Shown: piece after piece, positions 1 to 43,565 of the stretch
Layout of the letters: each line of letters begins with the position of its first letter
How positions within the stretch are numbered: position 1 is the first letter of the stretch
NCBI GenBank assembly: GCA_964016885.1
Contig: OZ024743.1
Span: 316,696,001-316,760,000, forward strand
DNA from: Eledone cirrhosa
Lineage: Eukaryota
Length of the DNA stretch: 64,000 bases
Reading direction: 5' to 3'
Made by a program: the position numbers and the translations under genes
The notes under the pieces: model-generated
The model's input: the letters and a program-made list of their open reading frames with translations, nothing else
Told to the model about the DNA's origin: nothing
Databases searched by the model: none

Positions 1-230
1 CCTCTCCAGGCCTGAGTACAGCAGATTTCTTCCAGAGAAGGATAGAGAGTGAGAGAATGGAAGTGAGAAAGAGATATAGAAGAAGAATCAACCCCAGTAT
101 TAGATCGGTACTTGTTTTACCAATTTCAAATCAATGAAAGGAAAAGTTGATCTCAACTGTGTTTGAACTCAGAAAGCAGAGAGCCAGAACAAATACCACA
201 AAGCATTCTATCCAACGTTCTAACGACCAA
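1..230 (-). mobile_element. tRNA-derived SINE with composite tail (partial at window edge)
   Basis: 1-40 is the reverse complement of CTTCTCTGGAAGAAATCTGCTGTA..TGGAGAGG seen at ~12660-12700 and ~47455-47495; it also carries the rc of the GAGTTCAAA B-box and CTTTCAT body. Confidence 0.65.
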
Positions 231-3801: not shown

Positions 3802-3950
3802 GATCATCATCATCATCATCATCACCGTTTTACGTCCGTTCTTCCACGCTAGCATGGGTTAGACGGGTTGTCCTGTTGTGGGCAGTGTCTGGTCGGCTGA
3901 CCATGCCTTGCTCATACAGGAACTATATATATATATACATATACATATAT

Positions 3951-4024
<74 letters not shown>

Positions 4025-4040
4025 ATACACACATATATAT

Positions 4041-4291
4041 ATGTTGATTTAAAACTGCACTATCCACAAGTGTTTTTTAGCCTTCATATCATGTCCTCCT
4101 GTTTTATCTGATGAAAACACAAATATTATTGCATGATGATGTTTGTTTTTGAAATGCGCATAATAAAATACATGGAACTCCTTTACCCATCTTTTGTTCT
4201 TATATATTATGTATACTCCAGTCCTACAAACTGTAGAGTGCTTCTTATCCGATATCTGCATTGCTTTATTGTACTACAATAAAACTCACCT

Positions 4292-4293
<2 letters not shown>
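4041..4293 (+). mobile_element. Solo 3' terminus (pLTR end) of the Penelope-like family at 32335-35890
   Basis: Closely matches 35720-35890 and rc of 32335-32590; ends AAAACTCACCTCCT; flanked on both sides by (TA)n. Confidence 0.9.
4100..4170 (+). ncRNA. Minimal type I hammerhead ribozyme (family A)
   Basis: Stem I TGTTTTAT/ATAAAATA, core CTGATGA (4108-4114), stem II AAACACAAATATTAT..ATGATGTTTGTTTT, GAAA (4151-4154), palindromic TGCGCA, TA cleavage site. Confidence 0.85.
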
Positions 4294-4326
<33 letters not shown>

Positions 4327-4329
<3 letters not shown>

Positions 4330-4670
4330 GAAATGACAGGAGGCTGGATTTGTGTAAATCCTTGAAAGGTTTATTATACTATGATCATTTCAATGACCGA
4401 GTTCCGTATGAATCCGGTGATATCATCAGGTATTCGAAATATAATACGTGAATGTAATAGGTAAAATCCATGGGGCTGAAAATCGAGACCCGAGGGCGAC
4501 CGCTATTCTGTTCCTTCAACCTCAGCCGGTCGCCTACTCCGTAATAGCACCACCAACTACAAAAACAAAGACGGTTGAACTGCTTTACGTTGAGTACTCT
4601 CTATATTATTGCATTACGATTGACCATACGGAATAGACCAGCTCTATACAGTGGTGAACCTCAAACCTGA

Positions 4671-4675
<5 letters not shown>
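4327..4675 (-). mobile_element. Probable Penelope-like terminal fragment of a second family
   Basis: ~350 bp of unique sequence embedded in (TA)n on both sides; contains a hammerhead on the minus strand followed by AATAAA. Confidence 0.6.
4376..4433 (-). ncRNA. Minimal type I hammerhead ribozyme (family B)
   Basis: Minus strand reads ATAC-CTGATGA-TATCACCGGATTCATACGGAACTCGGTCATT-GAAA-TGATCA-TA-GTAT: 4-bp stem I, intact core, palindromic stem III, imperfect stem II. Confidence 0.75.
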
Positions 4676-4717
<42 letters not shown>

Positions 4718-4962
4718 CTAAGTATTTCTTCATAGGAGCCTTTATGCTTATAGCCTGGTCTAATTGATTTTTTATATGGTTAATTATGCTAATTGGGAGA
4801 GGAAATGGTATATATTTTATCTAATAATTCTAAGGACATGATTTATGATATATTGCTCTGATTATTTAATTTATTAATTCTTCATTGAGCCACAACGTGA
4901 CCAGTTGCCACATATATATCTGTGACTTTATGTAAATCTTTATCTATCTATATATATATATA

Positions 4963-5310
4963 TGGAGGTACATGGCTTAGTGGTTAGAGCATTGGCCTGG
5001 CAAACGAAAGGTTGTGAGTTCAATTCTCAGACCAGGTGATGTGTTGTTTCCTTGAGCAAGACACTTTATTTCACATTGCTCCAGTTTACTCAGCTGTAGA
5101 AATGAGATGATAGGGATTGGGGTCCATATCATTCCATTGCAAAGTGGCCGTGGAGGTGCCACAGCAAAAAAACACCCAGCACTCACTGTAATGAGGTTGG
5201 TGTTAGGAAGGGCATCCAGCTGTAGAAATCAAGCCAGAATCAGTTCCCGTCCCACCCTTGCAAGCAGGGAAAAAGCGGACGTAAAACGAAATGATGATGA
5301 TGATGATGAT
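4963..5310 (+). mobile_element. CORE-type SINE with RTE-like 3' tail ending (GAT)n
   Basis: TGGCTTAGTGG..GAGTTCAATTC boxes, TCCTTGAGCAAGACACTT core, tail GCGGACGTAAAACG..ATGATGATG. Confidence 0.75.
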
Positions 5311-6564: not shown

Positions 6565-6754
6565 TAAGTATGTTTTAAATTAACAACACCATAGAAAAAC
6601 AGGAAGTTAAATAATGAGGTTGAGGAGGAGGAGGATGGTAGTGATGAGGAGGATGATGGTGGTGGTGGTGATGATGAGGAGGAGAAGGATGGTGATGGTG
6701 AATAATTTTAAATAATCAGTCATGTCTACAAAGAATCTGTAAAACATTCAAAAC

Positions 6755-9165
6755 AATATAGTCCCACAGAACTAATATAGTCCCACAAAAACAATATAGT
6801 CCCACAGAACCAATATAGTCCCACAGAACCAATATAGACTCCCAGAACCAATATAGTCAAACAGAACCAATATTGTCCCACAGAACCAATATAGTCCCAC
6901 AGAACCAATATAGACCCACAAAACTAATATAGTCCCACACAACCAATATAGACTCACAGAACCAATATAGTCCCACAGAACTAATATAGTCCCACAGAAC
7001 CAATATAGTCTCACAGAACTAATATAGTCCAACAGAACTAATATAGTCTCACAGAACTAATATAGTGCCACAGAACCAATATTGTCCCACAGAACCAATA
7101 TAGTCCCACAGAACTAATATAGTCCAACAGAACCAATATAGTCCCACAGAACTAATATAGTCCCACAGAGCTAATATAGTCTCACAGAGCTAATATAGTC
7201 CCACAGAACTAATATAGACTCCCAGAACCAATATAGTCCCACAGAACTAATATAGTCCCACAGAACTAATATAGTCCCACAGAGCTAATATAGTCCCACA
7301 GAGCTAATATAGTCCCACAGAACCAATATAGTCCCACCGAACCAATATAGTCCCACAGAGCTAATATAGTCTCACAGAACCAATATAGTCCCACAGAACC
7401 AATATAGACCCACAGAGCTAATATAGTCTCACAGAACCAATATAGTCCCACAGAACCAATATAGTCCCACAGAGCTAATATAGTCTCACAGAACCAATAT
7501 AGTCCCACAGAACCAATATAGTCCCACAGAACTAATATAGTCCCACAGAAGCAATATAGTCCCACAGAACCAATATAGACCCACAGAACTAATATAGTCC
7601 CACAGAACCAATATAGTCCAACAGAACTAATATAGTCCAACAAAACTAATATAGACCCACAGAACCAATATAGTCTCACAGAACCAATATAGTCCCACAG
7701 AACTAATATAGTCTCACAGACCTAATATAGTCCCACAGAACCAATATAGTCCCACAGAGCTAATATAGTTCCACAGAACCAATATTGTCCCACAGAACCA
7801 ATATAGTCCCACAGAGCCAATATAGTCTCACAGAACCAATATTGTCCCACAGAACTAATATAGTGCAACAGAACTAATATAGTCTCACAGAACCAATATA
7901 GTCTCACAGAACCAATATAGTCTCACAGAACCAATATAGTCCCACAGAACTAATATAGTCTCACAGAACTAATATAGTCCCACAGAACCAATATAGTCTC
8001 ACAGAACTAATATAGTCCAACAGAACTAATATAGACCCACAGAACCAATATAGTCCCACAGAGCTAATATAGTCCCACAGAACTAATATAGTCCCACAGA
8101 ACTAATATAGTCTCACAGAACTAATATAGTCCCACAGAACCAATATAGTCCCACAGAACCAATATTGTCCCACAGAACCAATATAGTCCCACAGAACTAA
8201 TATAGTCCAACAGAACCAATATAGTCCCACAGAACCAATATTGTCCCACAGAACCAATATAGTCCCACAGAGCTAATATAGTCCCACAGAACTAATATAG
8301 TCCCACAGAACTAATATAGTCTCACAGAACTAATATAGTCTCACAGAACCAATATAGTCCCACAGAACCAATATAGTCCCACAGAACTAATATAGTCTCA
8401 CAGAACCAATATAGTCCCACAGAACTAATATAGTCCCACAGAACCAATATAGTCCCACAGAACCAATATAGTCCCACAGAACTAATATAGTCTCACAGAA
8501 CCAATATAGTCCCACAGAGCTAATATAGTCCCACAGAACCAATATAGTCCCACAGAACCAATATAGACTCCCAGAACCAATATAGTCCCACAGAACCAAT
8601 ATTGTCCCACAGAACCAATATAGTCCCACAGAACTAATATAGTCCCACAGAACTAATATAGTCCCACAGAACCAATATAGTCCCACAGAACCAATATAGT
8701 CCCACAGAACTAATATAGTCTCACAGAACCAATATAGTCCCACAGAGCTAATATAGTCCCACAGAACCAATATAGTCCCACAGAACCAATATAGACTCCC
8801 AGAACCAATATAGTCCCACAGAACCAATATTGTCCCACAGAACCAATATAGTCCCACAGAACTAATATAGTCCCACAGAACCAATATAGTCCCACAGAAC
8901 CAATATAGTCCCACAGAACTAATATAGTCCCACAGAACCAATATAGTCTCACAGAACTAATATAGTCCCACAGAACTAATATAGACCCACAGAACCAATA
9001 TAGACTCACAGGGCTAATATAGTCCCACAGAACCAATATAGACTCACAGGGCTAATATAGTGCAACAGAACCAATATTGTCCCACAGAACTAATATGGTC
9101 TCACAAAACCAATATAGTCCCACAAAACCAATATAGTCCCACAAAACCAATATAGTCCCACAGAA
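6755..9165. repeat. 19-bp satellite (~125 copies)
   Basis: Unit CCCACAGAACYAATATAGT; the 19-aa periodic ORFs correspond to 3 units. Confidence 0.97.
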
Positions 9166-9388
9166 TCAACCAATATGGTTGTACAGAACCAATAAATAGT
9201 GTGTATGGGGGATTAGTGGAATCATTAGAATGTTTGACAAGATGCCTTATATTGTCAGTTCTGCTGCTTTATGTTCGGAGTTCAAATTCTGTCTAGAGCT
9301 TCTAATATCCTCGTTGATTGCCAAGACTAATTACCCAAACATGGGACTACAATAGATTATAAAAGCTGCTATGGGTGAAAGAATGTTG

Positions 9389-9760
9389 TGATGGCAAAGA
9401 CCCACCCACTACTGATAGCAAATACCCACTCACTAGTGATGGAGAAGACACATACATGCTAATCATAGCAAAGGCCCACCCACTAATGATGGGGAAGATC
9501 CATTCACTAGTGATGGCAAAGACCCACCCACTAATGATGGGGAAGATCCATTCACTAGTGATGGCAAAGACCCACCCACTAATGATGGGGAAGATCCATT
9601 CACTAGTGATGGCAAAGACCCACCCACTAATGATGGGGAAGATCCATTCACTAGTGATGGCAAAGACCCACCCACTAATGATGGGGAAGATCCATTCACT
9701 AGTGATGGCAAAGAACCATCCACTAATGATGGGGAAGATCCATTCACTAATGATAGCATG
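9389..9760. repeat. 48-bp minisatellite built of two 24-bp subunits
   Basis: GATGGCAAAGACCCACCCACTAAT + GATGGGGAAGATCCATTCACTAGT, about 6 well-conserved dimers plus degenerate flanks. Confidence 0.95.
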
Positions 9761-13580: not shown

Positions 13581-15339
13581 GAGGGAGCCGGGATCATCTG
13601 CTTGAGGCCTACCTCAGCTGAGCCCCCTCTGCCTACCCGCTGGCCTACCTCTCATATGGAGCCCCGAGCATGCTCCTAGCTGCTGATACGGTCATACCCT
13701 CGGCTACTGGGGTCCAACAGGGTGACCCTTTGGGACCCCTCCTGTTTGCCCTTGGTATTGACCACATCGCCCGGAGTATCACGGCCTCTCTCAACGTTTG
13801 GTATCTGGATGATGCTACGTTGGGCGGGCCTGTATGGACGGTCTGCCATGACCTTCAATCAGTGATTCTTGCCCTGGCGGGAATTGGCCTCCAGGTCAAC
13901 TCGGCCAAGTTGGAGGTGGTGAACGTCAGCCTGGATGCTACGAGCTTTGCAGCCTCCGTCTTGGATGTGCGGTCCATTCTCCGCCAGGTTCAGGTGACCC
14001 CCAAAAAGAATGTCCTCATCCTTGGGTCACCGATCCACCCGCCGGCCATCCGCTCCATCATCAGGTCCAGGCTTCAACAGCTCCAGACTCTCACAAGCCG
14101 ACTGGGCTTGATTGACAGCCACCCAGCTTTCTTTCTGCTGAGGAACTGCTTCGCCATGCTGAAGCTCCTCTATACACTCCGCAGTGCTCCATGCTACACC
14201 CAGACATCTCTCCTCGCTGACCTCGATACTTGTATCCAAGCAGCAGCCGAAGAGATATGCAACGTCAACTTTGACGACATAGGGTGGCAACAGGCCATTT
14301 TACCAGTCAGGTATGGCGGCCTTGGCCTCCGGTCCCCGATCTCACTATCTTTGCCAGCATATCTTTCGTCGGTAACCTCGTGCCGCGTCCTCGTCAGCAG
14401 GGTTCTTCAAAACACAACAGAACCCTCTGTGTTCAGAGAACGTGAAGCCGCCTGTGAGACATGGGACCGGCTGGGACTTAGCCCATTAGACATCCTTCCT
14501 CCTTCTCCCTTTGTTGACGTCAAGTCCCCCCAACACACTTGGGATGCCATCCAGTGCAGCCTGGCCTCAGACAGGCTCACGCGCCAGCTCGACCAGCACC
14601 GCCTTGCTTGTTTTCGTGCGGCCTCCAAACCCCACAGCGGTGCCTGGCTCCATGCCCTGCCCTCCTTCTCCACTGGCACGCAGCTAGACAACCATAGCCT
14701 GCGAATCAGCGTTTCTCTGAGGCTCGGCCTCCGGATCTGCCAGCCACACCAATGTCGCTGCGGTTCCACCATGGACTCTTTCGGCCTCCACCCACTTTCC
14801 TGTCACCGCAGTGCCGGCCGCATTCCACGTCATGCTGCCCTCAACGAGGTCATTAAGCATGGCTTGGATGCTGCAGGCTTCCCTTCCCAGCTCGAGCCGG
14901 TGGGACTGGATCGAGGGGACGGCAAAAGGCCAGATGGCATGACCATCTTCCCGTTCCGCGGTGGCAAACCCCTCGTCTAGGATGCCTCTTGCACCGAGAC
15001 TTTCTGCAGCCGCAACCTGGTGCAGTCTGCGACTGACCCAGGTTCTGCTGCACGTCGAGCTGAGGGGGCCAAACTCCTCAAATACCGGTCGCTCTCCGAC
15101 AGGTTTGCGGTTGTTCCCCTGGCAGTGGAGACTTCTGGTGTCCTCGGCCCCAGGGCTACCTCCTTACTCACCACCATAGGTGCTGAGCTGGCCAGCCACA
15201 GGTGTGAGCCCCGCGAGCTGGAGTGGCTTTTCCAGCGCGTCTCCCTTTCCGTCCTCCGAGTAAACACCTTCTCCATTCTGTCCACCGGGGCTGTGGGTGG
15301 GCCCCATCGCGTACCAATGCATTAGTTAAATACCATTCT
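13580..15339 (+). mobile_element. 5'-truncated CRE-like non-LTR retrotransposon (RT + CCHC + restriction-like endonuclease); 3' UTR continues at 19534-19550
   Basis: GVQQGDPLGPLLF, WYLDD, GGLGL, CRCG..HPLSC zinc motif, RHAALN, RPDG..LV*DASC (PD-(D/E)xK); premature stops at ~13619 and 14978. Confidence 0.92.
13670..15325 (+). pseudogene. RT-RLE ORF of CRE-like element (one internal TAG at 14978-14980)
   Basis: ORFs 13670-14980 and 15020-15325 read as consecutive parts of one protein; the copy at ~37515 has TGG (W) where this one has TAG. Confidence 0.85.
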
Positions 15340-15607: not shown

Positions 15608-17401
15608 TTACCCCCTCGTCCTTCTGCATATGAAAGTCTGCTGTCCAGGTTGGTGGTTTGCGACTTCTTTGCGATCTCCGCAGTGTTGGGGCGGCACTTT
15701 GGGTTTCCTCTTCCTCGGAGTCCGTTGACACTTGATTCTACGGACAGCCAGGACATGACGTGGTACTCCGTCCACGGACACATTGTTCTGGGAATTTACG
15801 GCCGTCACCGTTCCCCTTCCACATTGAGATGTGCAATGTGCATCTGGGGGCTTAACCCAGACTTCTTCGCCCAACTGCATGAATGCATTCTCTCTCCCCA
15901 CTGGCCGTTGTGGTGGCATGCACGGGTGCCGCCACTCGTATCTGAATACTGCTCTGTGTGGCACCGATTCCTCAACCTGTCCCACCCGAGGGGACATGTA
16001 CCAGAACACTGCCTCCATTGGTGAGATATGGCCCCACTCCGCCATTGCCTTGATCGTCCGGTGGTGTCGTTCCACAATTCCATCCCCGCTCGGCCTGTGT
16101 GCTGCACTGAAGAAACGGTCCACCTTCCATCCATCGAGCATCTCCCTCAGCGCCTCCGAGCGGAACGCTGCGCTGTTGTCCATCAGCAGTTCGTCCAAAG
16201 GGCCCCACTCCAAGAACACCTCTGTCAACGTCCGCATGATTTCCTCGGCCGTTCCAGTCTTCATCTCCCTCCATATCGCCATCCGTCCTGGTCTACAGTC
16301 GAGGTACGTTCCCTGTCGGTAGTGCGTTACATCCACCGCCAATCGCTTCCAGTCGCGATCCACCGGGAGGCTTCCCGTTTCGTGCACACCCGGGGCGGGA
16401 TCAATGGACTGACATCGGACGCAGCCTCTAACCACCCTTTGAACTCTGTGTCTGTTAACGTCCGAGTCGATTCTCCTGGCTAGGAACAGGGTCCTATCCA
16501 CTCCCATGTGGTGCATGTCATGCAACCCTTTCAGATCCGACTCGGTCAGCCGACATACGGCAGCTATCTCATCTTCTACCTCCTCCGGCACTTCCATCCA
16601 GGCTTTCTTCACCCTGGTTAAGACGTCCGCTCTATTTTTCTCTGAGGGCACGAAAACTACGCTCAGCCTCAGGTTGAACTCGGTGGCCAGCTCTCCTAAA
16701 GTTCTCAGGCGGCGCTTTATCAGCATCTCCGCCGCCCCTCTCGTTCGCACTCTCTTCTCACTGGTGAGTACTGATCTCACCCATCCGAGTACAGTAGCCA
16801 AGTCGGTGCGTATCTCGATGGTGCGCAGTCCCCACCTCAGGGCGAGGTTCACCCCTCTCAACACTGCGTCCAGTTCGGCCACATTGATGTGGTTGCAGTC
16901 GTCCTTCTTCCTAAGCCAGGCTGCATCCTCGACCTCAACATCTATCTCCAACGTGACACCCAGCGCTATGCTGCTGGCATCGCACCATACGGTCCCGCTC
17001 TGCGATTTGGGAACATACCAGCGTCCCCGCACTGGGTCGTCGGCCTTCACCCTCTCCACGATCTCCTGCATCATGGCCACCGTCCTCTCTCCCACTCTGT
17101 CACTCCAAGTCACCCCTCCCGCTCGTCTCTTGACAGAGCTGCATGCCGTCCGGAGCCACCCAGCAATAGAGTAGTGACCCACCAACTTTCCACACACCGA
17201 GAAAAGCTCCCGCCTACTCATACTTGGGCCCAGTTCTGGAACTTCATTTCCCCTCTGGAATACCAAGACGCCCGTCCCGTCTCGCCGTAGCCTAAGTCCC
17301 AGCGCGGCTCCTCCTTCCAACGCTTCTGACGGCTTCGCAGCCAGTCCATACCCCTGTAAATGGCTCGTGACCTCCGCCGCCGACACTACAGACTCGTCCA
17401 C
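15608..17401 (-). pseudogene. pol: Pol C-terminal part: RT end, RNase H, integrase
   Basis: RNase H WCDAS..INVAEL..IRTD..NRADVL; integrase HDMHH..CVRC, LAVD, LMDN, IVERHHRTIK. Confidence 0.9.
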
Positions 17402-18345
17402 TAGGATGTTGTCAAGTAGGAGTTAGTGGCCCTCTTCATCTTGTCGGCCTTTCCCAGAATGGTCTTGAGGACCGCCGCCATGATCTTCGGTGCGGAGCTC
17501 AGCCCGAAACCGAGCCTGGTCAGGCAATATGTCCGGCCCTTATACCTGACCAGCTGATACTGCCAGAGCTTCTCATCTATATGCAATTGCAAGTATGCCG
17601 ACTTTAGATCTACGATTGCTGAACCCCCCGTCATGCGTCTCCACTCACGCAGGATTTCGTCACAGACATCCGTGACCTCGCCACCCGTGTGGCATGACAC
17701 GTACTCGTTCAGCTCCCGAAAGTCCAGCACCGGCCTCACCTTGTTCTTCGTGAGTTGCGCCACCGCCATTAACAGCAATACTCCGCACTTCACCTCCTCT
17801 TTCCAGGGAAGCAGTATGCCCTCCCCAATCCATCTCTCTACCTCTCGCTCCTAATGTCTCCCTTCAATGTGTGTTGATAGCAGCCCACTTTGGTCTTCAG
17901 TGTTGGTGGTTCTCCCTTCCAGTACCACTCAACAACCCATCGAACACGGCCTTGAAGTCTTTGTCCTGCACAGTGTAAGCGGGGTATTTCTCCTCGTGGG
18001 CCTTCTGGTTCTCCTGTCGCGTACTCACAGCGCATACCGATGCAGCGCCGCCAAACGACACACCAACGTTGTTCACTGTGACGTCTCCTAGACGACCAAT
18101 TGCGTCCATGCCCATAACCACGCCGATCCCATCCACCATGTTGTCAACTACGATGGCAGAAAGCCTTATTTTCCTTCCCCGTACCGCCATCGCCACCTCG
18201 CTGCGACCTCGGCATTCAATTTTCCTGCCGTTGACTGCCCTTACGCTGCTCTTCCCTCTCCACCTCTGCGCCACCCCCGCGGTCACCAGTGTCGTCGTAC
18301 AGTCCGTGTCCACGAGGGCTCACTGTGGCTTTCCCCTCACGAAGA
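17402..18345 (-). pseudogene. pol: Aspartic protease and RT N-terminal part, frameshifted
   Basis: *ALVDTDCTTT (degenerate DTG), VVMGMD; KVRPVLDFRELN, DLKSAYLQL, TRLGFGLSSAP; YxDD region broken by frameshift at ~17415. Confidence 0.85.
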
Positions 18346-18399
18346 CTTCCACCACGGGCAGCGCCTCTACTCGTAAGGGGCAACTACCGGCGCAGTAGT

Positions 18400-19131
18400 T
18401 CCCTTTGGATTGGATCGTTTCCCTGGTCGCAGTTAGTAGCGATGTGGCCTGGTCGCTTACACCGGTAGCATATTATTTCCGGCCTTGACTCTCTACAGTC
18501 TCTCGCCATGTGCGGGCCCTGGCACCTAAAACAGCGACCTCTAAACGTTCGCGGGCGACCGCGTGCCGTGGTTGCCTCCCTTTCACCATTTCGCTGCCAG
18601 CTGTCTTGAGCCTCTGTAGTTGCTATCGCCGCGACACTTCTTGGCATCTTCTGCTATGATACGGGCTTGCTCCACCAGTGAACACATCTCCATTTCTTTG
18701 TAACCCGGGACTTGCTGCAGTTTCACTGCTATGTCGTCTGGAAATCCATTTATGAACGCCAACCGCACCGTGCGTTCGCATTCCACCTGATATCCAGCCA
18801 ACATGGCCAATCGCCGTATTTCCGCTGCGAAAATGTCAACGCGTTCACCGTTCCATCTAATTCTCGCCAGATTAGCAAAAGCGGCTAACGGTCCCTCTGC
18901 GAACGCTTCCATCATGCGCCTCTCAATCTTTTGCGCATCCCTTTGGCTGTGTTCATCCAACTCAAGGAAGAGTACCAACGCGTCCCCCTCGAGGTTCAGT
19001 GCCATGAGGCCAGCCACATCTTCTATCTTCTGATAGCTTGCGACCAGCCGGACTTTTCGCAGCCAAGCGACAACATCTCCTTCACCGGTAAATGCCCTAA
19101 TCGCTTCGCTCGTTCGTAGTCTCGTCGCCAT
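18400..19131 (-). pseudogene. gag: Short Gag with two CCHC zinc knuckles (one frameshift)
   Basis: ORF 18583-19131 plus CFRCQGPHMARDC and CYRCKRPGHIATNC in the overlapping ORF 18384-18647. Confidence 0.85.
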
Positions 19132-19212
19132 ATCCTAATTTGTCTTGCGGTACGTAATAAAAAAAAACAACAACAGACTCCTCTCTGTTTTTCCAGTAGC
19201 TTTGTTTTCGAG

Positions 19213-25639: not shown

Positions 25640-28315
25640 AACCCTTGAACTTTTTCCTGGGCAAAATTATTCGAACAGACATGACCTCATTGCCAGAGTG
25701 TTCAGACTGAAACTGGCTAAACTCATGGCTTTAATTTAAAAAAAAGGTCAGATATTTGGGGCTGTAAAATGACATGTTCACCGTCGAATGGCAAAAACGA
25801 GGGCTGCCACAGCTCACATTTTGATTTGGTTAACTGATAAAATCAATTCAAATGCCATAGACAGCTTCAATTCGGCGGAAATCCCTAGCCCAGCAACTGA
25901 CCAGGAATTACATGACATCGTCAAAGCTAACATGGTCTGTGTGCGTCGGGTCCTAATGAGTATCACACGTGTCTGAAAGGGGGGGCGTGCAGTAAGGGAT
26001 ACCCCAACAAATTTGTTGACGAGACTCAGACTGGTGGCGATAGGTACCCCCTGTACAGGTGGAGACGGCCCGAAAACGGTGGCTTCACCACAACAGTAAA
26101 GGGAGGTCAAGTCGACAATAGATGGGTGGTCCCTTACTGCCCGCTTCTCTTGAAGATGTTAAACGCCCACATCAATGTTGAGTTTTGCAGCTCCGTCAAG
26201 TCTATAAAATACATATGCAAATAGGTAAATAAGGGCTCTGATGAGGTCACAGAATACCTGACGGGGCGGTACATCAGTAGCAATGAAGCTTTTTGGCGCC
26301 TATTTGGTTTACCCCTAAACCAACGTCACCCCGCCATCGTACAGCTTGCGGTACATTTGGAAAATGAGCAAAGGGTTTACTTTACGGACCAAACCGCCGC
26401 CAAGTTGGCCGCCGATCCGAAAGAGACCACTCTGACGGGTTTCTTCAAACTTTGCCAGTTCGATACATTTGCGCAAACAATTGTGTACTCCCAGGTTCCA
26501 TCCTACTTTATATGGTCGAAAAACACTTGGGTGCGAAGAAAGTCAGGTCAGGCTGCTGAAAGACATCCTGGTGTCAAATTTGACAGCCGTCTTGGAAGGG
26601 TTTACACTGTGCCCCCAAGTCAACATGAGTGCTTTCATCTCCGCCTTCTTCTGCATGAAGTTGTAGGCTCACAAAGTTTTTAGGACCTCAAAACTGTTGA
26701 TGGAGAAATATGTGATACGTACCGGGAAGCCTGCTTTAAGCGTGCTCTTTTGGAAGATGATTCGCAATGGGATTCCACTTTAGCAGAGGGTGCTTTGTTG
26801 AAATCGCCTAAAGGTCTACGGGAACTCTTTGCCATTTTGCTTCAAAAGTGTGAATTGGGTGATCCCAAATCTTTATGGGTCAAGTACAGAGGCTTCATGT
26901 CTGAGGATTTCCTGCGCCTGGCTCATCTGCAGTATACTTCAGTGGAAGTTGCTTACAGCGACATTATCTACAATAGGGCACTCATTGATATCGAGGACGC
27001 CCTCCTCGACATGGGTGGGAGTGAGTTGGCGACGTATGGCTTGCCGTCAACCATCAGAGAGGAAGCTAACACGTTGGCCCCGGATTTGTTGCGGGAAACA
27101 GCATATGACATCGAATCTCTTTCCCAATACTTAAAAACTGCTACTTTGCTGCCGGGAGGCAGGACAGCACATTCAACCTTTAAACTCCCCTTAGATTTAG
27201 TAAAAAGTGAGACACCAACATGCAATATCAGCAACAGTTCACACGAAGCTCTGGTTCTCAAAAAATGTTGCCTCATTGTTTGGGATGAGTGCACAATGGC
27301 ACACAAGAGTGCTCTTGAAGCATTGAACAGGACCCTGAAAGACATTAGGGATTCTACGGCTCCTATGGGTGGCGTAACCCTTCTGCTATCAGGGGATTTT
27401 TGGCAAACGCTGCCTGTCATACCCAAAGGGACAAGAGCTGATGAAGTGCATGCATGTCTTAAGTCGTCCATATTGTGGCTCTAGGTGAAGAGTTTGTACC
27501 TGAGCACAAATATGCGTGCTCATTTGCATGGTGACATGTTTGCAGCATTTGCTCAGAATATTTTAGCACTTGGTGAGAGCAAGGTCCCTGCGGATGACAA
27601 GGGCGACATAGCAATCGACTCTCTGTGCAACATTTTGAGCAGCCCTTCTGACTTTTGGGAAGCAGTTTTTCCTAATGTCTCTAACTTTAAAAACCTCGAT
27701 TGGCTCAGAGAAAGAGCCATCCTTGCTCCAAAAAATACCATGGTTAATTTTATTAACGAGCAGCTGATTGAGAAGTTTCCCGGTAAAGAACACATCTTCA
27801 AATCTATCGACCGAACGTCAGACCTCGACGATATCGTTAATTATCCGGTTGAGTTATTAAATTCCCTTGAGCTCCCAGGGCTCCCACTTCACATTCTTAA
27901 GCTTAGGCTTGGCTGTCCCATTATGCTAATAAGGAACTTGCGCCCACCAAAGCAGTGCAACGGTACTCGCATGGTCGTCAAGTCAATGATGCCCAACTTG
28001 ATTGAGGCCACCAATGTAACGGGGTGCGGGAGAGGGGAGAATGTTTTCATTCCAAGGATGAACCTTTTCCCCTCGGCGTCAGATATCCAGTTCGATTTCC
28101 GGCGATCCCAATTCCCGATGAGACCATGTTTTTCCATGTCCATTAACAAGTCACAAGGGCAAACATTGTCGGTGGCGGGCATCCATTTGGGGGAGCCATG
28201 CTTCTCCCATGGCCAACTTTATGTTGCCTGTTCCCGCGTAGGGAACAGGAATGGACTTTTTGCTTACACTCCTCAAGGGATGACACGCAATATCGTCTAC
28301 AAAGAGGTGCTATAG
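25640..28315 (+). pseudogene. Helitron RepHel protein (HUH endonuclease + PIF1-family helicase), disrupted
   Basis: EWQKRGLP/AHILIW (HUH motif, frameshifted), KSIKYICK*VNKG, GGRTAHSTFK, IVWDECTM, SGDFWQTLPV, RAILAPKN, CNGTR, MSINKSQGQT, FSHGQLYVACSRV. Confidence 0.92.
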
Positions 28316-32304: not shown

Positions 32305-32336
<32 letters not shown>

Positions 32337-32458
32337 AGGAGGTGAGTTTTATTGTAGTACAATAAAGCAATGCAGATATCGGATAAGAAGCACTCTACAG
32401 TTTGTGGGACTGGAGTATGCATAGTATAAGATCAAAAGATGGTTAAAGGAGTTCAATA

Positions 32459-32529
32459 TATTTTATTATGCGCATTTCAAAAACAAACATCATCAAACAA
32501 TAATATTTGTGTTTTCATCAGATAAAACA
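32459..32529 (-). ncRNA. Minimal type I hammerhead ribozyme (family A, inverted arm)
   Basis: Reverse complement of 35781-35851. Confidence 0.85.
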
Positions 32530-33214
32530 GGAGAACATGATATGAAGGCTAAAAAAACACTTGTTGATAGTGCAGTTTTAAATCAACATATGAAAAGTGG
32601 TTTTAGATTGATGTGTGATATTGGGAAAAATATTTTATTTAGAGAGGGGGGGGGAGAAAAGGATGAGAAGGGAAGGAGATGAGAGGGAGAGATGGGTGAT
32701 AGAGAGAAAGAGATAGTTTTTATAACTGAGAGGAGATATATTTTATATAGAGGGGTTGAAAACCGTTGGAAGATACTGTATAAATTAAAAATGTTGAAAA
32801 TTAACGAAGGGAGGATATGTGCGAGGAAAAAATATTATATTTAGGGAGGGGGGGGGGGTTGGAAAGGATGAACAAAAGTGGAGGAGATGAGAGTGAAGGT
32901 GGAAAGGGAGAGATGGGTGATAGAGAGAAAGAGATAGTTTTTATAACTGAGAAAAAGATATAATGTTTTAATATAGAGAGGTTGGGAACCGTTGGAAGAT
33001 AATGTATAAATTAAAGGAATTTGAAAATTAACGAAGGGAAATTATGTATGAAGATAGAGAGAAAAAAATAATAATTGTGGGTGAATATTCTAACGTCAAA
33101 AGAAGAAATGTAGGAATTTTAAAATTAGCAAAGAGAAAAAGTTTATGTGTAGAAGGATTTGAGAAAAATAATGTGAAGTTAAAGTTTGTATATTGAATTC
33201 ATATGTATTAATAA

Positions 33215-34809
33215 ATATTTCGCCTTCACGTCTCAATAATGCTCTATCTTTCGCACTTAAATATTCTGACATCACCACAGATGAACTTCACATCATCCTC
33301 ACCGCACGTAAAACCATCCTAGAGTTCAACAACGAATATTGGACCAGAGCCGATACCTCTAACAACTTCGACATCACAATGGGAGCATCCGATTCATCCC
33401 AATTGACTGATTTAATTGGTATCTTCATTTTGAACTCTTTGAGTCGGAAAATTCCTCAACTTCGCGGTGGAATTTATCGTGACGATGGACTCTTTACTAT
33501 CCTAAATTGCAATATAGTTAAACTTAATATTATTAAGAACAATATACGTAATCTCTTTAACCAACATAACCTAAAAATTGAATTTGATAATAGTATCAAA
33601 CTAGCTAATTTCTTGGATGTATCTCTTAATCTTGACACTGGCCTATATTACCCTTACCATAAAAACAATGAGAATCTTAATTATGTTAACTTTAAATCTA
33701 ACCATCCTACCAATATCAAGAATGCTATAGTTAATAATATTGGAAATAGAATATCTAACATATCTTCTAATAAAAACATCTTTGATGCTAACGCCAATTA
33801 CTATAATAACGCACTTTCTAAAGCCGGCTATCCAGATAAAATCAAATATAATAAAGAAACAAATTCTAGGAAAACTTACAGTAGAATATTTAATCATAAC
33901 CATTCCAATAATTTTAATAAAAGACCTAGATACAAAAACATAATCTGGTATAATGCTCCTTTCTCCATCTCTATTAATAACAATATTCCTAAATTATTTT
34001 TTAGTGCCTTAAATAAATGCTTCCCTCCCTCACATATCTATAGTAAAATATTTAACAAACACACCATCAAATTTTCGTATTCTACATCCTCCAATATTTC
34101 CAACATCATCTCTAAACACAACAACAAAATATTAAATACTAAATCTCTTCCTTCCAATATTGAATTTCATAATAACAGTAATAGTACTCCTGACGTCATT
34201 GTAAACCCTAGGCTAACTTCTGTAAACCCAAATGCAACGTCAAACACAACTTCGCTAAATGTTCATAATCCAACTCTAAATCAAGAAACTATTATTCCTA
34301 TTATTCCTATCGCAAACAACTTCTCCAATCCAATTCCTTCTATAGATAACACTAGATCACTCATTAATAATCTCTCTAATTGCAACTGCCGCATTAAAAA
34401 TAAATGTCCTCTCAACAACCATTGCCTCGATAAAAACTTAATTTATGAATGTAAAATTATAACTAGCGCCAATTCCTTCACCTATTTTGGCTCCACTTCC
34501 ACCTCTTTTAAAGCTCGTCTCTATAATCATCATTCATCTTTCAAATACAAACTTAAAAGAACTAACACTGCTCTCTCAGAACTCATATGGTCCTTAAAAG
34601 ACAAAAACATTAAATATAACATCTTTTGGAAAAAGATTTCTTCTGCATCCTCATACTTGAACAGCTCTCTATCTAAAATCTGTAATCTCTGCCTAAATGA
34701 AAAATTTACCATTATCTCTAACCTAGAATCCATAATAAATAGACGCTCAGATTTGTTTTCTATCTGCCTGCATAAATTCCATAGAACTTTTCACAAAGTA
34801 TACAGTTAA
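33215..34809 (+). CDS. Penelope-like RT (C-terminal part) + Asn-rich linker + GIY-YIG endonuclease; N-terminus missing
   Basis: Uninterrupted ~530-aa frame: FDITMGASDS, GIYRDDGL, NFLDVSL, SNHP, CNCRIKNKCPLNNHC, LIYECKI..TYFGST..FKARLYNH, CNLCLNEK, SICLH. Confidence 0.9.
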
Positions 34810-35780
34810 TATTCAATTCTTTATCAATTTAGAATCTTTTCTCAAAGGCACATATACATACACCTCTTTAAAATATACCCATCTACCTTACTTTAAAGGG
34901 CATTATACACTCTATAATACTCGTTTACTCATTACCCTCATTCTATCTCCTCGTAAAACAATAACATTTGTTTTTGACATTTTGAGTATTCATCCGCAAT
35001 CATTATTATTTTTTCTCTCTATCATAAATCTTTTTAATCTCAATTTCATCCTTAATTTATTATTATTTTTTTCTCCTCATCAACGAACTCATTATTAATA
35101 CATATGAATTCAATATACAAACTTTAACTTCACATTATTTTTCTCAAATCCTTCTACACATAAACTTTTTCTCTTTGCTAATTTTAAAATTCCTACATTT
35201 CTTCTTTTGACGTTAGAATATTCACCCACAATTATTATTTTTTTCTCTCTATCTTCATACATAATTTCCCTTCGTTAATTTTCAAATTCCTTTAATTTAT
35301 ACATTATCTTCCAACGGTTCCCAACCTCTCTATATTAAAACATTATATCTTTTTCTCAGTTATAAAAACTATCTCTTTCTCTCTATCACCCATCTCTCCC
35401 TTTCCACCTTCACTCTCATCTCCTCCACTTTTTTTCATCCTTTCCAACCCCCCCCCCCCTCCCTAAATATAATATATTTTTTCCTCGCACATATCCTCCC
35501 TTCGTTAATTTTCAAAATTTTTAATTTATACAGTATCTGCCAACGGTTTTCAACCCCTCTATATAAAATATATCTCCTCTCAGTTATAAAAACTATCTCT
35601 TTCTCTCTATCACCCATCTCTCCCTCTCATCTCCTTCCCTTCTCATCCTTTTCTCTCCCCCCCCTCTCTAAATAAAATATTTTTCCCAATATCACACATC
35701 AATCTAAAACCACTTTTCATATGTTGATTTAAAACTGCACTATCAACAAGTGTTTTTTTAGCCTTCATATCATGTTCTCC

Positions 35781-35851
35781 TGTTTTATCTGATGAAAACA
35801 CAAATATTATTGTTTGATGATGTTTGTTTTTGAAATGCGCATAATAAAATA
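35781..35851 (+). ncRNA. Minimal type I hammerhead ribozyme (family A)
   Basis: TGTTTTAT-CTGATGA-stem II-GAAA-TGCGCA-TA-ATAAAATA. Confidence 0.85.
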
Positions 35852-35883
35852 TATTGAACTCCTTTAACCATCTTTTGATCTTA

Positions 35884-35921
<38 letters not shown>

Positions 35922-36992
35922 ATATGAAGGTATAAACCCGCCTGTGACACCTAGCAGTTTCAGCTTGTACGTTTCAAGCTTTCTCCAAGGTATATGTTAT
36001 GTTGCATCTCTTTTTATACAACTTCACCAATTCTATTATTGTTACCATTATTACTCTCAAGTTTCTTCTTGTTTTCAGTGCAAGCCTTTCCAATGTCTAA
36101 TAGTCCATACCTTATTATATATTTTCAGTAGCACAAGGTAAGTCATAAAAGGTTGTTCTTTTGTTTTAATTTTGCTATGATCAATATTAATCTTTTACCA
36201 TCCTGTGATGATTTAGCAGAAAATATTTAAAAACAGCTTTGTGAATTCAAATGGTTACAGTATTTTACTGATGGACAGATCATTGTAAACATTTGAAGTA
36301 TTAAAGATTTTAATTTTTAATGTAATGCAGCCATAGTGCTTTTTTGTACTTTCCAAGAATGTCTTGTTAATGTTGTTTGTTAATTCAAATAGTTATACTA
36401 GTGGACAAGTTATTGTAAAACTCTGCAGTATTAGCGTAAAGGCTTCAATTTGTTTAATCTGATGCAGTCATAGTACTGTTTTGTACTTTTCAAGAATGAC
36501 TTGTTAATGTAGTTTCATGCAGGACAGAGCACTGAGGTTGAACTGTGAATGTCAATTGTTAAAAAAAAATTATTGACTGCATGTACAAGAGTCTCCTCTT
36601 GCAGGTATGTCAGTCTATGATAGGTTTCCCATCCCTACCCTTGCTGCTGATACTTTCAGGTGACTGGAGCAAACTGAAGTGAAGTACTTTGCTGAAGAAC
36701 ACAACATATCATCCAGACCATACAGTTTGATACTGAAAGTCTTAAACACAACAGGGACTTTATTAATGGAGATTTGGCTGCTATATTAAACGCCCTCTTG
36801 ATTTCAAAGCAAACTTCCTAACAACTTAAATATTTTTGTGTCCATTTATCAATATTAAGACATTCTACAGCTGCAGCCATCCTTACATAGATCAGACAAT
36901 TCCTCTCAACTATAACATCCCTCCATTTGTCTCCCTTTGTCATTTTCTTTGTGAGGTTCAATTTCTTAGTCAAATTTCACCACAACCTGTGT

Positions 36993-37888
36993 CCGAAGCC
37001 CCTCTATACACTCCGCAGCGCTCCATGCTACACCCAGACATCTCTCCTCGCTGACCTCGATACTTGTATCCGAGCAGCAGCAGCCGAGGGGATATGCAAC
37101 GTTAAGTTTGACGACATAGGGTGGCAACAGGCCACTTTACCCGTCAAGTATGGCGGCCTAGGCCTCCGGTCCCCGATCTCACTAGCTTTGCCGGCGTATC
37201 TTTCGTCAGTAACCTCGTGCCGCGTCCTCGTCAGCAGGGTTCTTCAAAACACAACAGATCGGCGTTTCCCTGAGGCTCAGCCTCCGGATCTGCTAGCCAC
37301 ACCAATGTCGCTGCGGTTCCACCGTGGACTCTTTCGGCCTCCACCCGCTTTCCTGTCGCCACAGTGCCGGCCGCATTCCACGCCATGCTGCTCTCAACGA
37401 GGTCATTAAGCATAGCTTGGATGCTGCAGGCTTCCCTTCCCAACTCGAGCCGATGGGGCTGGATCGAGGGGACGGCAAAAGGCCAGATGGCAAACCCCGG
37501 TGTCAAACCCATCGTCTGGGATGCCACTTGCACCGACACTTTCTGCAGCCGCAACCTGGTGCAGTCTGCGACTGACCCAGGTTCTGCTGCACGCTTGCTG
37601 AGGGGGCCAAACTCCTCAAATACCGGTCGCTCTCCGACAGGTTTGCGTTCGTTCCCCTGGCAGTGGTAACTTCTGGTGTCCTCGGCCCCAGAGCTACCTC
37701 CTTACTCACCACCATAGGCGCTGAGCTGGCCAGCCGTAGGTATGAGCCCCGCGAGTTGGAGTGGCTTTTCCAGCGCGTCTCCCTTGCCGTCCTCCGAGGA
37801 AAGGCCTTCTCCATTCTGTCCGCCGGGGCTGTGGATGGGCCCCATGGCGTACCATTACATTAGTTAAATACCATTCTTTCATCTCATA
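36993..37888 (+). mobile_element. Second copy of the 13580-15339 CRE-like family, 5'-truncated with internal deletions
   Basis: High identity to 14160-14420 and 14705-15339; ends TAGTTAAATACCATTCTTTCATCTCATA followed by TA-rich sequence. Confidence 0.93.
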
Positions 37889-38399: not shown

Positions 38400-40108
38400 A
38401 TGTTCATCGATATCGTTGAAAACGAGGAAGCCATATTGGAAGCTAACGCCACGCCTACCAAAAAAAGCGAGAAAGAGGGAACAACAATTCAAACTGTTGA
38501 ACAGCCCCTCCTCTCGAATGAAAAAAAGAATATTAATTCGAGTGAAAACCTAAATTTTGAAGAAAAAAATAACAAGAAAATAAACACCACAAAAGATGAA
38601 ACAAACAACATTGCAACAATGAACGAAGCGAAAGCAACAAAGACAACAAAGTTTCTTTTGCCCAAACGGTCAGGAAAGCTATCGAGTACAAGCCCATAGA
38701 CATCACAAACGCTAAGCAGAACTTGCTAAATGCCAGAAAATGCATATCTTTTGGGGAGGATGGTTCTTTTACGATCAACTCCCCAGAAGAAGTTCGTCAA
38801 CAGGTATATAGGAATACCATAACCTTCAGGACGATATCCAACACAACAAGAAAGCCAGCTCAATTGACAGAAAGTCAAATTGAGCTGGTTCTGAAAGACA
38901 TAAAAGAAGACGTACTCTTTATTGAAAGAGGAAAGCTGTATGCCAGCATTATGGTCCGAATGAAGGACGAAATGCTGGCTCAAAAATGCTCGGTGGCACC
39001 TATAGTGTCACCACAATACACCTTCTCCACGTATAAAGGAAGAAGAACTCAGAGACTAAGAATGTGGAGCTCAACGTCAGAAGTAAATATCTGGTCCGTC
39101 CTGACAGGATTTACGGACCTAGAAAAGGACATCTTTATATCAGCAGGGAAGTCCACCAGTGGACTGTTCGGGGGGAAAAGTCTGGAGGTTCTCTTACAGA
39201 TGACACCTGAGAGAATCGCCGGAATACCCGACCGAGTCCTATTGGATGGGCGATCCTTTATTAATATTACGGTGGAAGGCAGGAAGCCCTCATGTTACCA
39301 CTGCGCTGGCAGAGGTCACCTGAAGACGGCCTGCCCTCTACTAACAAAAAAACCACTGCTACAAACACCACAACAACAAAAACAACCAGCACCACCACCA
39401 CAAAAACAACAAAATACACTACCATCACTACCACAACGACAACAAAAACCAACAACATCAACAACAGCTCAAGAAAACAACCCCAAACACGGTCCCACCC
39501 AGCCCCTCCCCACAGAACACAAATACAAAAACACACGCAGTTCATACACAACCTGGAAATATACCCCTCCCCTCCAATACGGAAGAGGAGCTCATATCGT
39601 CGGAAGACGAGGGGGCTCCCTTCCAAAAAGTGAAAAGGAAAAAACGTACACACACCACACAAACAAAAATAACCCCACCTGACAACACAACACAGACAAC
39701 AAAACGCAAGCTCATTCAAACACAACACAAAAACTCTACATAAACAAAAACAATAAAAACTTAACAGAAAAAATAGAAAACAACCCTTCGGTACAAACCG
39801 AAGGGCCGAATTTTGCAATGGCAATGGGACTCCCTAACCTGAAAATGGTGAAAGTCCCACTTGACATTTTCAAAACATTGAAAAACATTTACCCTGAGGA
39901 CGTGGGGCCACCCTGCACCAGGCCACTCAACCGCGTCCTCCTGAAAGGTTTTCCCCTCCCCTCCTCAAAGACCCACACAATTCCAAACACCCCAACCCCT
40001 CCACACACTAATACCCCCACACCACCACAAACCACCACCCCACCCAACAACCCCTCCACCAGCCCCATGGAAACTGAGCAGCCCGGACCCCGGGACGCAG
40101 AGAGGTAA
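38400..40108 (+). pseudogene. LINE ORF1 (gag-like, CCHC), split in three pieces
   Basis: ORFs 38400-38699, 38723-39682 (CYHCAGRGHLKTAC, Q/P/T-rich tail) and 39818-40108. Confidence 0.75.
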
Positions 40109-40131
40109 GTGCCTCTTTCTTTGCCACCAAC

Positions 40132-43100: not shown

Positions 43101-43565
43101 GCTCTACAGACACGGGCGCCCGGGTAGGGACCCCTCGAAAAAGATTTGTCCCAGATGCGTGCGCGACGAGGAAACCGTCGCGCACGCATTAGTGCACTGC
43201 CCGGGCGTTGCCGATCTGTGGGGCTATGTCGAACAACTGCTGTCACGGGGGGGGGACCAATTAGGTTGACCACCGAGTCCATTGTAACGATCAAGCCGCC
43301 TCCCCCATTCAAAAATGAAGGAGAGGCGGTCTTCCTCTGTGTAATAGCCATGGTAAAAGAGGTTATATGGTGGACGCGTCTGAAAGGGCTGAGGTCGGAC
43401 ACCTTTCTTTCCGGCCAACAACTGGTCCTTTTCTTCCGATACCATTTCGGAAGAAGGATCAGGATGGAGAGAGAGGTGCTCCACTCCAGCCAGTTTTATG
43501 AAAGGTATGTGAAAGTTGCGAGAATGGCCCGTGTGAATGGGCCTTCTCTCTACCTCAGCCTGTAG
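40132..43565 (+). pseudogene. LINE ORF2 (APE endonuclease + RT + C-terminal zinc finger), frameshifted
   Basis: CLNARGL, VYAP, SYLDRFLV, YSDHKLV, KSPGLDG, NFRPITLLN, LDQSKAFDRV, IRQECPLS, ACADDVT, CPRC..ETVAHALVHC. Confidence 0.92.

What the first reader, a model, noticed from the sequence alone, without database searches (positions are those of the whole stretch)
4041..4675. Two different hammerhead-ribozyme termini tail-to-tail in one (TA)n tract
Seen: a family A hammerhead on + (4100-4170; stem III palindrome TGCGCA) and an unrelated-sequence family B hammerhead on - (4376-4433; palindrome TGATCA). The two fragments are separated only by (TA)n and point towards each other. Known: Penelope-like elements carry minimal type I hammerheads with short palindromic stem III thought to cleave as dimers. 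Inference: two PLE families independently hit the same microsatellite, creating a locus that could self-cleave transcripts from either strand, or these are ribozyme-bearing non-autonomous elements (retrozyme-like).
Basis: partly seen in the sequence, partly recalled or inferred. Interest (0 to 1): 0.75.

Follow-up and report, generated by a model that had tools for sequence, protein, structure and literature searches.

The report
Two Penelope-type insertions sharing TA repeat
The two hammerhead-ribozyme motifs are real, but they are the ends of two separate mobile-DNA insertions that sit in the same TA repeat about as often as chance predicts; one comes from a protein-coding Penelope-like retrotransposon, the other from a 2.8-kb non-coding element that likely borrows the enzyme of that same group.

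Summary
Both hammerhead motifs are present as described, 34 bp of (TA)n apart and convergent. The pairing is ordinary. Family A (19,857 exact cores) is the 3' end (pLTR plus tail) of a Hydra-clade Penelope-like element with an intact 821-codon frame; a truncated parent lies at 32.3-35.9 kb in this window. Family B (5,541 cores) belongs to a 2,797-nt non-coding tandem unit. The B copy here is itself two-armed: hammerhead arm on minus (4328-4534), tail on plus (4536-4677). Such insertions point a 3' end outward on both sides (110 of 115 have one short and one long end), so neighbours usually converge. The same A|B junction occurs 10 times genome-wide (9-17 expected; A|A 70). Each strand carries a lone minimal hammerhead and the mixed stem III is unstable, so a two-way self-cleaving locus is unlikely. 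Of more interest: B shares with coding Hydra families a twice-repeated bulged hairpin just 3' of both end types, probably the reverse-transcription start signal. The scan noted that hairpin before on other DNA of this genome; sequence look-ups found no note on the B unit. No B parent ORF or RNA data found.

The parts
3924..4042 (.). Left part of the (TA)n-type target tract (with CA interruptions)
4039..4293 (+). Family A insertion: single-armed 3' end (pLTR + tail, long end) of a Hydra-clade Penelope-like element; starts at the family's recurrent 5' site about 124 nt before the predicted cut
   Evidence: 243/256 identical to the pLTR of the intact tandem L167; 28 of 89 arms start at -129..-123
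4100..4170 (+). Type I minimal hammerhead A, palindromic stem III AUGCGCAU, predicted cut after 4162
   Evidence: 19,857 cores
4215..4243 (+). Hairpin 1 of A (ACTCC ... GTAGAGTGCTT); the family's short ends lie 4-7 nt 5' of it
4294..4327 (.). (TA)17 left between the two insertions
4328..4534 (-). Family B inverted (short-end) arm, unit positions 2591-2797; one private C>U change in stem II keeps a G-U pair
   Evidence: 206/207 identical to L061; other contigs read G at 4400
4376..4433 (-). Type I minimal hammerhead B, palindromic stem III AUGAUCAU, predicted cut between 4380 and 4379
   Evidence: 5,541 cores
4492..4534 (-). G+C-rich hairpin at the 5' start of the B arm; its sequence differs between B subfamilies while a stem can still be read (by eye)
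   Evidence: z -3.0; subfamily sequences
4536..4677 (+). Family B forward (long-end) arm = tail, unit positions 12-153; begins exactly at hairpin 1 (ACTCC 4536-4540, box GTTGAGTACTC 4589-4599) and ends 1-3 nt before where hairpin 2 would start
   Evidence: 142/142 identical to L061
4676..4714 (.). Right part of the (TA)n target tract
32335..35886 (+). 5'-truncated two-armed parent copy of family A: inverted long-end arm (hammerhead at 32521, minus), RT-EN frame 33172-34809 (545 aa), short-end pLTR (hammerhead at 35789, plus), TA on both sides

Best explanation
The locus is one (TA)n tract that holds two separate insertions, the 3' end of a protein-coding Hydra-clade Penelope-like retrotransposon (A) and a two-armed piece of a 2.8-kb non-coding element (B) that is likely copied by Hydra-clade enzymes; their facing hammerheads are likely a chance by-product of shared TA targeting. 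Mechanism. Shown: both families end in TA, at two fixed sites per family; two-armed insertions nearly always have one short and one long end, both pointing outward; each end lies 0-8 nt 5' of one of two copies of a small hairpin (RCTCC ... GTHGAGYRCTY) that B shares with several ORF-bearing Hydra families; the window's copies contain the uncut hammerhead site. Inferred: the GIY-YIG endonuclease cuts TA DNA; the reverse transcriptase, positioned by the hairpins, primes from the two DNA ends at the two sites; the cDNAs are joined head to head. The B copy here fits two primings on one uncut RNA, since its arms do not overlap and the tail arm stops at the base where the other arm starts. B probably arrived second (it is nearly identical to its master; A's nearest copy is 98%). 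The hammerheads are passengers from the pLTR; they would cleave only as same-family dimers in tandem precursor RNA, or with protein help, and are probably idle here.
For: A parent: 3,896-nt tandem unit, 821-codon open frame right after the tail; all 150 scored RT matches 99-100% identical; motifs DKT, CxCX5C, CxxC-E-N-CxH, no CCHH as defined for Hydra. B unit: 2,797 nt, head-to-tail contiguous in tandem copies, longest ATG frame 86 aa, no PLE protein match (best E 0.18), no Rfam match. End geometry: long+short in 73 of 77 A and 37 of 38 B two-armed insertions; ends at +43..46 and +133..137 (A; hairpins at +51, +141) and +58..63 and +204..206 (B; hairpins at +64, +208) from the cut site. Hairpin 2 box followed by a Hydra ORF start: 82 matches, control 0; hairpin 1 stem found in 17 of 29 representatives, with ACTC/GAGT changed to TCTC/GAGA in one family. 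Adjacency: 14 A-long|TA|B-word junctions, 10 of them B proper, expected 9-17; control A|A 70; 14 of 84 does not differ from the core ratio (p 0.29). Other cross-family neighbours in TA were seen in passing (L009, L231, L240).
Against: No B-type pLTR was found in front of an ORF, so the enzyme that moves B is not identified; whole-segment similarity of the A and B tails is weak (4 of 200 shuffles score as high) and the link rests on two short boxes that I first saw with B in view. Pfam and PDB give no significant match for the A protein; its RT identity rests on a by-eye match to the published Hydra alignment and on E 3e-6 to a Pfam RVT_1-positive RT. Covariation within families is weak: A has 0 two-sided and 10 one-sided pairs and does not beat shuffles; B has 3 two-sided pairs. 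The chance expectation rests on 30-locus samples and 200 kb of random sequence. No empty-site allele was seen. The locus sets for end counts are not all unbiased and were de-duplicated only by identical sequence.
Confidence: 0.85

Rival explanations
1. The convergent pair is a functional, selected module that cleaves read-through transcripts on both strands.
For: Both cores are intact and stems are 97% paired across copies; A has an 8-bp stem I and a 15-bp stem II; in trans dimers with the many other A or B RNAs are conceivable.
Against: No enrichment over chance; intact cores are expected from youth (B arm 206/207 identical to master); one core per strand locally; mixed dimer unstable; no host gene seen in the window, only mobile-element frames; single minimal PLE hammerheads showed no cleavage in vitro (PMC4209133) and the PAc hammerhead needed protein (PMC11167929).
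Confidence: 0.04
2. B is the 3' end of an autonomous PLE family whose coding copies I did not sample; the 2.8-kb non-coding unit is only a deletion or capture derivative.
For: Searches score only the best 40 candidates; B has several subfamilies 70-90% identical and a sister lineage B'; pLTRs can carry captured DNA in trans (PMC3846280).
Against: All read-through copies examined continue into the non-coding unit (30 of 30; older copies L229, L237, L075); no ORF inside any arm of 20 older copies with 5 kb upstream or 30 B' loci; B tail + box + Hydra ORF start: 0 matches.
Confidence: 0.15
3. [quoted passage not shown]
For: More-than-unit copies exist (L061, L063, L223, L242); one hammerhead per non-coding unit; model proposed for PLEs in PMC4209133.
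Against: Tandem genomic masters explain the same copies; 5' ends pile up well upstream of the cut site (A 28 of 89 at about -125; only 4 of 89 at -1..+5; no B arm within 9 nt of it among 69); described animal retrozymes are about 170-400 nt (PMC7229834).
Confidence: 0.25
4. The two arms of B arise by fold-back self-priming of one cDNA (or of an antisense template) rather than by two primings on the RNA.
For: Many A copies are near-perfect palindromes centred on CATATG; self-priming was proposed for PLE inverted junctions (PMC3846280).
Against: The window's B arms share no sequence, so one cannot be a fold-back copy of the other; fold-back does not by itself give one short and one long end in 110 of 115 insertions.
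Confidence: 0.1

Closest known systems
Hydra clade of C-terminal-endonuclease Penelope-like elements, nearest listed family Hydra-1_Obim (Craig et al. 2021, PMC8557442; seen: passages, section 11, supplement part 2 and passages)
   Same: Family A: single RT-EN frame, DKT, CxCX5C linker, no CCHH, CxxC and CxH around E and N, hammerhead near the 3' end, (TA)n target, tandem and inverted copies with a tail.
   Different: Unit is 3.9 kb (published Hydra mostly under 3 kb), RWT for RWK, tail about 90 nt (30-40 bp described for PLEs), about 20,000 hammerhead cores; hammerhead sequence unrelated to that of Hydra-1_Obim. B has the architecture but no ORF.
Minimal hammerheads of metazoan PLEs (Cervera and de la Pena 2014, PMC4209133; seen: parts 1-2 of 4)
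   Same: Type I core, short palindromic stem III, predicted dimer activity; the paper already reports dual motifs 100-700 bp apart on opposite strands and low activity in vitro.
   Different: Those opposite-strand pairs were not resolved by family; here the two belong to different insertions and converge.
Poseidon PAc of Anolis (Frangieh et al. 2024, PMC11167929; seen: parts 1-2 of 4)
   Same: Two internal reverse-transcription start sites define the tail; both DNA strands are cut and extended; uncut RNA is the template; hammerhead needs protein.
   Different: PAc starts lie in an AC-rich stem-loop inside the ORF; here each start lies just 5' of one copy of a duplicated hairpin upstream of the ATG, 90 (A) or 144 (B) nt apart.
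Animal non-LTR retrozymes (PMC7229834, passages; bioRxiv 10.64898/2026.07.22.740005, part 1 of 5 and passages)
   Same: B: non-coding, one type I hammerhead per unit, head-to-tail copies, probable dependence on PLEs.
   Different: B unit is 2,797 nt against about 170-400 nt; copies are mostly dispersed, 5'-truncated and two-armed in (TA)n, not long arrays; circular RNA untested. The preprint's tandem-repeat search had a 1,000-bp period limit and would miss it.
Non-autonomous Chlamys PLEs such as MRC1 (PMC8557442, passage) and pLTR-flanked captured DNA in Adineta (PMC3846280, passages)
   Same: Non-coding elements with pLTRs moved in trans.
   Different: Those resemble their partner's 3' end in sequence; B shares only short cis boxes with coding Hydra families.

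Membership tests
Hydra-clade PLE (family A) | Single ORF with RT and C-terminal GIY-YIG endonuclease | tested here: met
   821-codon frame; matches published Hydra alignment by eye; E 3e-6 to an RVT_1-positive RT; Pfam and PDB themselves give no significant hit
Hydra-clade PLE (family A) | DKT in place of DKG | tested here: met
   HSDKTNN in L167
Hydra-clade PLE (family A) | RWK motif | tested here: inconclusive
   RRLRWT in A; RWK or RWR in sister families of this genome
Hydra-clade PLE (family A) | CxCX5C linker, no CCHH, CxxC and CxH around E and N | tested here: met
   CNCRIKNKC; one C only inside the GIY-YIG core; CNLC-LNEK-INRR-CLH (definition)
Hydra-clade PLE (family A) | Hammerhead in pLTR, (TA)n target, tandem/inverted copies with tail | tested here: met
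Hydra-clade PLE (family A) | Placement in an RT phylogeny with reference Hydra proteins | not tested
   reference proteins were seen only as paper text and were not entered into tools
Autonomous PLE (family B) | RT-EN open reading frame in the unit | tested here: not met
   longest ATG frame 86 aa; tblastn best E 0.18; no parent found
Non-autonomous PLE-type element (family B) | pLTR/tandem/inverted architecture, two fixed 3' ends in (TA)n, many near-identical dispersed copies | tested here: met
Non-autonomous PLE-type element (family B) | Mobilised in trans by a PLE protein | not testable with these tools
   inferred from shared hairpin boxes
Animal non-LTR retrozyme (family B) | Short unit (about 150-450 bp) in tandem arrays | tested here: not met
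   2,797-nt unit, mostly dispersed truncated copies
Animal non-LTR retrozyme (family B) | Non-coding unit with one type I hammerhead | tested here: met
Animal non-LTR retrozyme (family B) | Expressed as linear and circular monomer RNA | not testable with these tools
   needs RNA data or experiment
Type I hammerhead ribozyme (both motifs) | CUGAnGA / GAAA / UH core with three stems | tested here: met
   stems 97.5% and 97.0% paired over 67 and 47 distinct copies; core and stem III were fixed by the search pattern, so their invariance is no evidence
Type I hammerhead ribozyme (both motifs) | Compensatory stem changes among copies | tested here: inconclusive
   A: 0 two-sided, 10 one-sided pairs, not above shuffles; B: 3 two-sided pairs, 6 of 500 shuffles reach the score; stems differ yet pair across families
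Type I hammerhead ribozyme (both motifs) | Self-cleavage | not testable with these tools
   needs in vitro assay

The most novel reading that the evidence does not exclude
B is a long-lived 2.8-kb protein-free parasite of Hydra-clade Penelope elements that kept only three cis signals (hammerhead and two bulged hairpins). The two hairpins each place one reverse transcriptase of a dimer on one uncut RNA, so their spacing sets the length of the PLE 'tail' (90 nt in A, 144 nt in B), and the 349-bp B copy in this window is a minimal record of that double priming. Its hammerhead would cut tandem transcripts into 2.8-kb, possibly circular, monomers about ten times larger than known animal retrozymes.
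Probability: 0.4. Interest if true: 0.6.

Novelty: new variant of a known kind. Interest (0 to 1): 0.33.

Why it matters
The reported pairing matters little: in a genome with tens of thousands of hammerhead-bearing PLE ends aimed at TA repeats, convergent pairs of unlike hammerheads are routine, and similar first-stage findings can be discounted. What could matter is the side result. How PLEs choose their two start sites and form the tail is open; an intact, high-copy Hydra protein (A), a non-coding passenger with a different hairpin spacing (B) and a short shared hairpin give a direct in vitro test of the start signal and of trans-mobilisation, and a compact RNA tag for RT-endonuclease insertion into (TA)n.

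Tried and rejected
Rfam: no hammerhead family matched the region at E<=10 or the window at gathering scores; nothing matched the B unit. Monomer folding does not beat shuffles and B's lowest-energy fold is not the hammerhead. RNA: no RNA holder listed for B. Contigs of four public runs laid on 3810-4950 break at the TA tracts, so no empty-site allele could be seen. B parent: sought in 30 consecutive B loci, 30 read-through loci, 20 older copies with 8-kb context, 30 Hydra ORF starts, 30 B' loci and one genome pattern; none found. The first DNA search for A gave only 57 candidates; this was an artefact of skipped common words, the pattern count is 19,857. Pairing of box 1 with box 2 was considered and rejected: the G>A change in both B boxes would break it, and each box pairs with its own upstream RCTC. 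A pile-up of 5' ends at the cut site was looked for and is weak (4 of 89 A arms). Pfam, PDB gave nothing for the A protein; the protein atlas gave no answer. Paper searches listed no description of a multi-kb non-coding hammerhead element of Hydra type or of the twin hairpin; subscription papers and the supplements of the bioRxiv preprint were not visible. No notes on A, B or the B unit by sequence look-up.

Full report
Observation. A motif scan of the whole window finds four type I hammerhead cores with a palindromic stem III: family A at 4108 (+), 35789 (+) and 32521 (-), and family B at 4429 (-). (TA)17 at 4294-4327 separates the two elements. Rfam does not detect either motif and neither folds better than shuffles, but the core patterns occur 19,857 times (A) and 5,541 times (B) in the 3.0-Gb genome with 0 matches for the reversed patterns.

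Family A. The window holds a 5'-truncated parent at 32.3-35.9 kb with a 545-aa frame. All 150 scored matches to its RT part are 99-100% identical, and tandem copies define a 3,896-nt unit with an 821-codon open frame that starts just after the tail. The protein has DKT, a CxCX5C linker, no CCHH and CxxC/CxH around E and N, the features given for the Hydra clade in PMC8557442 section 11, and follows the published Hydra alignment, including Hydra-1_Obim, by eye; it has RWT for RWK. Pfam and PDB give no significant hit; a pairwise comparison with an RVT_1-positive RT from a neighbouring locus gives E 3e-6. The piece at 4039-4293 is 243/256 identical to that pLTR and tail and starts where 28 of 89 sampled A arms start, 123-129 nt before the predicted cut, a likely transcription start (inference). 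The host is probably a cephalopod (inference from the nearest published family).

Family B. The 343-bp query maps in two parts in most copies. Tandem copies define a 2,797-nt unit (L061, L063) whose end runs into its start. It has internal duplications, a longest ATG frame of 86 aa, no match to two PLE proteins and no Rfam match. Older subfamilies are 70-90% identical and also non-coding where seen; a sister lineage B' with stem III TGTGCA or TGTACA is about 70% identical. No B pLTR joined to an ORF was found in about 140 loci or by a genome pattern. In the window, B is an inverted arm (4328-4534, 206/207 identical) joined through one untemplated base to a forward tail (4536-4677, 142/142). 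So B's short end faces A, and its tail end points away.

Why the pair converges. Arms end in TA at two sites per family: +43..46 and +133..137 from the cut site in A, +58..63 and +204..206 in B (in the unbiased samples 26 of 31 A and 46 of 54 B arms fall in these clusters). Two-armed insertions have one short and one long end, both facing outward, in 73 of 77 A and 37 of 38 B cases (all loci held, not an unbiased set). Any two such insertions in one tract therefore meet 3' to 3'. A genome pattern for A long end, 10-110 nt, B short end gives 14 places on 8 contigs; 10 are B proper including this one, 4 are B'; flanks and arm lengths differ. The same pattern with the A short end gives 70 (27 of the 30 examined have a dinucleotide-repeat spacer). 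With TA-type sequence at 3-5.6% of 200 kb of random genome and end rates from 30-locus samples, 9-17 A|B junctions are expected; 14 of 84 does not differ from the B:A core ratio (p 0.29) and is below the estimated end ratio (p 0.02). The same model expects 23-43 A|A junctions, so it is rough, and any excess is within A, not between A and B. At least a dozen other hammerhead families turned up in the flanks, with 5 motifs in 200 kb of random sequence against 0 in the reversed control. PMC4209133 already mentions opposite-strand pairs 100-700 bp apart.

Would the locus cleave? Each strand carries one core locally; the next A cores are about 28 kb (minus) and 32 kb (plus) away. Stem III duplexes are predicted at -10.5 (A/A), -7.2 (B/B) and -0.8 kcal/mol (A/B). 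Single minimal PLE hammerheads showed no cleavage and dimers little (PMC4209133); the PAc hammerhead needed protein and uncut RNA was the main template (PMC11167929). Both window copies span the cut site, so their templates were uncut. No host gene is evident in the window. Stems are 97% paired across copies; all eight common stem variants of A keep pairing, but they are one-sided and A does not beat shuffles; B has three two-sided pairs.

Link between B and Hydra. Aligning post-cleavage segments showed two boxes shared by A, by other ORF-bearing Hydra families and by B. Each is the 3' side of a small hairpin with a 2-nt bulge, RCTCC ... GTHGAGY. Box 2 followed by a Hydra ORF start matches 82 places, control 0 (loci chosen this way cannot test box 2 itself). 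Hairpin 1 was found in 17 of 29 representatives; 6 had a box but no stem by my rule and 6 no box, some being truncated; one family has TCTC/GAGA for ACTC/GAGT. Ends lie 0-8 nt 5' of the hairpins in A and B and, by eye, in four more families. Box-like words are visible in published Hydra-1_Obim and Hydra-2_Amil DNA. The hairpin spacing (90 nt in A, 144 in B) equals the tail length. The window's B tail arm begins at the first base of hairpin 1; four other copies begin at +63..65, two of them not selected for likeness to this junction. This fits two primings on one RNA, like twin priming of L1 (recalled, not from a call). I saw the boxes before consulting the scan on them; earlier notes describe the same hairpin on other DNA of this genome and are not independent support.

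Verdict. The finding as written is real but ordinary: two independent insertions in a shared target. A is a new, very abundant member of the Hydra clade. B is a non-autonomous PLE-type element, longer than described retrozymes; I found no such element in the searchable papers. Enzyme partner, cleavage, expression and circularity are untested. Papers seen: PMC8557442 (passages, section 11, supplement part 2 and passages), PMC11167929 and PMC4209133 (parts 1-2 of 4), bioRxiv 10.64898/2026.07.22.740005 (part 1 of 5, passages; supplements closed), PMC7229834, PMC3846280, PMC13282606 (passages).

Noticed in passing
window 32335-35886: Two-armed, 5'-truncated copy of the family A Hydra element with a 545-aa RT-EN frame; long end on the inverted arm, short end on the coding arm.
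   Followed up: yes
window 48644-64000: Satellite of 47-bp units, over 327 copies, 95% matches, running off the window end.
   Followed up: no
window 6754-9169 and 9389-9758: 19-bp minisatellite (127 copies) and a 24/48-bp repeat.
   Followed up: no
window 15608-19134 (-): Frames that look like gag and RNase H/integrase of an LTR retrotransposon (by eye).
   Followed up: no
window 13622-14980, 36891-37409, 38600-43269, 26225-28315: Broken non-LTR retrotransposon frames (two kinds) and helicase-like frames resembling a Helitron (by eye); no host gene evident in the window.
   Followed up: no
window 4967-5034 and 3810-3915: tRNA-like head (Rfam 29.6 bits) of a probable SINE; the stretch at 3810-3915 is very high-copy in public contigs.
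   Followed up: no
L211, L216, L217, L218, L323-L352: Sister lineage B' (2,525 candidates), older, about 70% identical to B, stem III TGTGCA/TGTACA instead of TGATCA; no ORF seen in its arms.
   Followed up: partly
L061:3052-4069 (unit 1305-2322): A 510-bp module with a G+C-rich core is duplicated inside the B unit and is kept at 70-80% in older subfamilies; function unknown, possibly a promoter.
   Followed up: partly
alignment A1: Five of the eight common stem variants in hammerhead A are A/G opposite U, which fits wobble tolerance or A-to-I editing fixed by reverse transcription.
   Followed up: no
L009, L231, L240, L242, L167, L169, L170: Other unlike hammerhead families next to A or B ends in TA tracts; at least a dozen families with palindromic stem III in the loci held.
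   Followed up: partly
genome pattern: A|A junctions (70) exceed the rough expectation (23-43), perhaps local re-insertion or linked events of one family.
   Followed up: no
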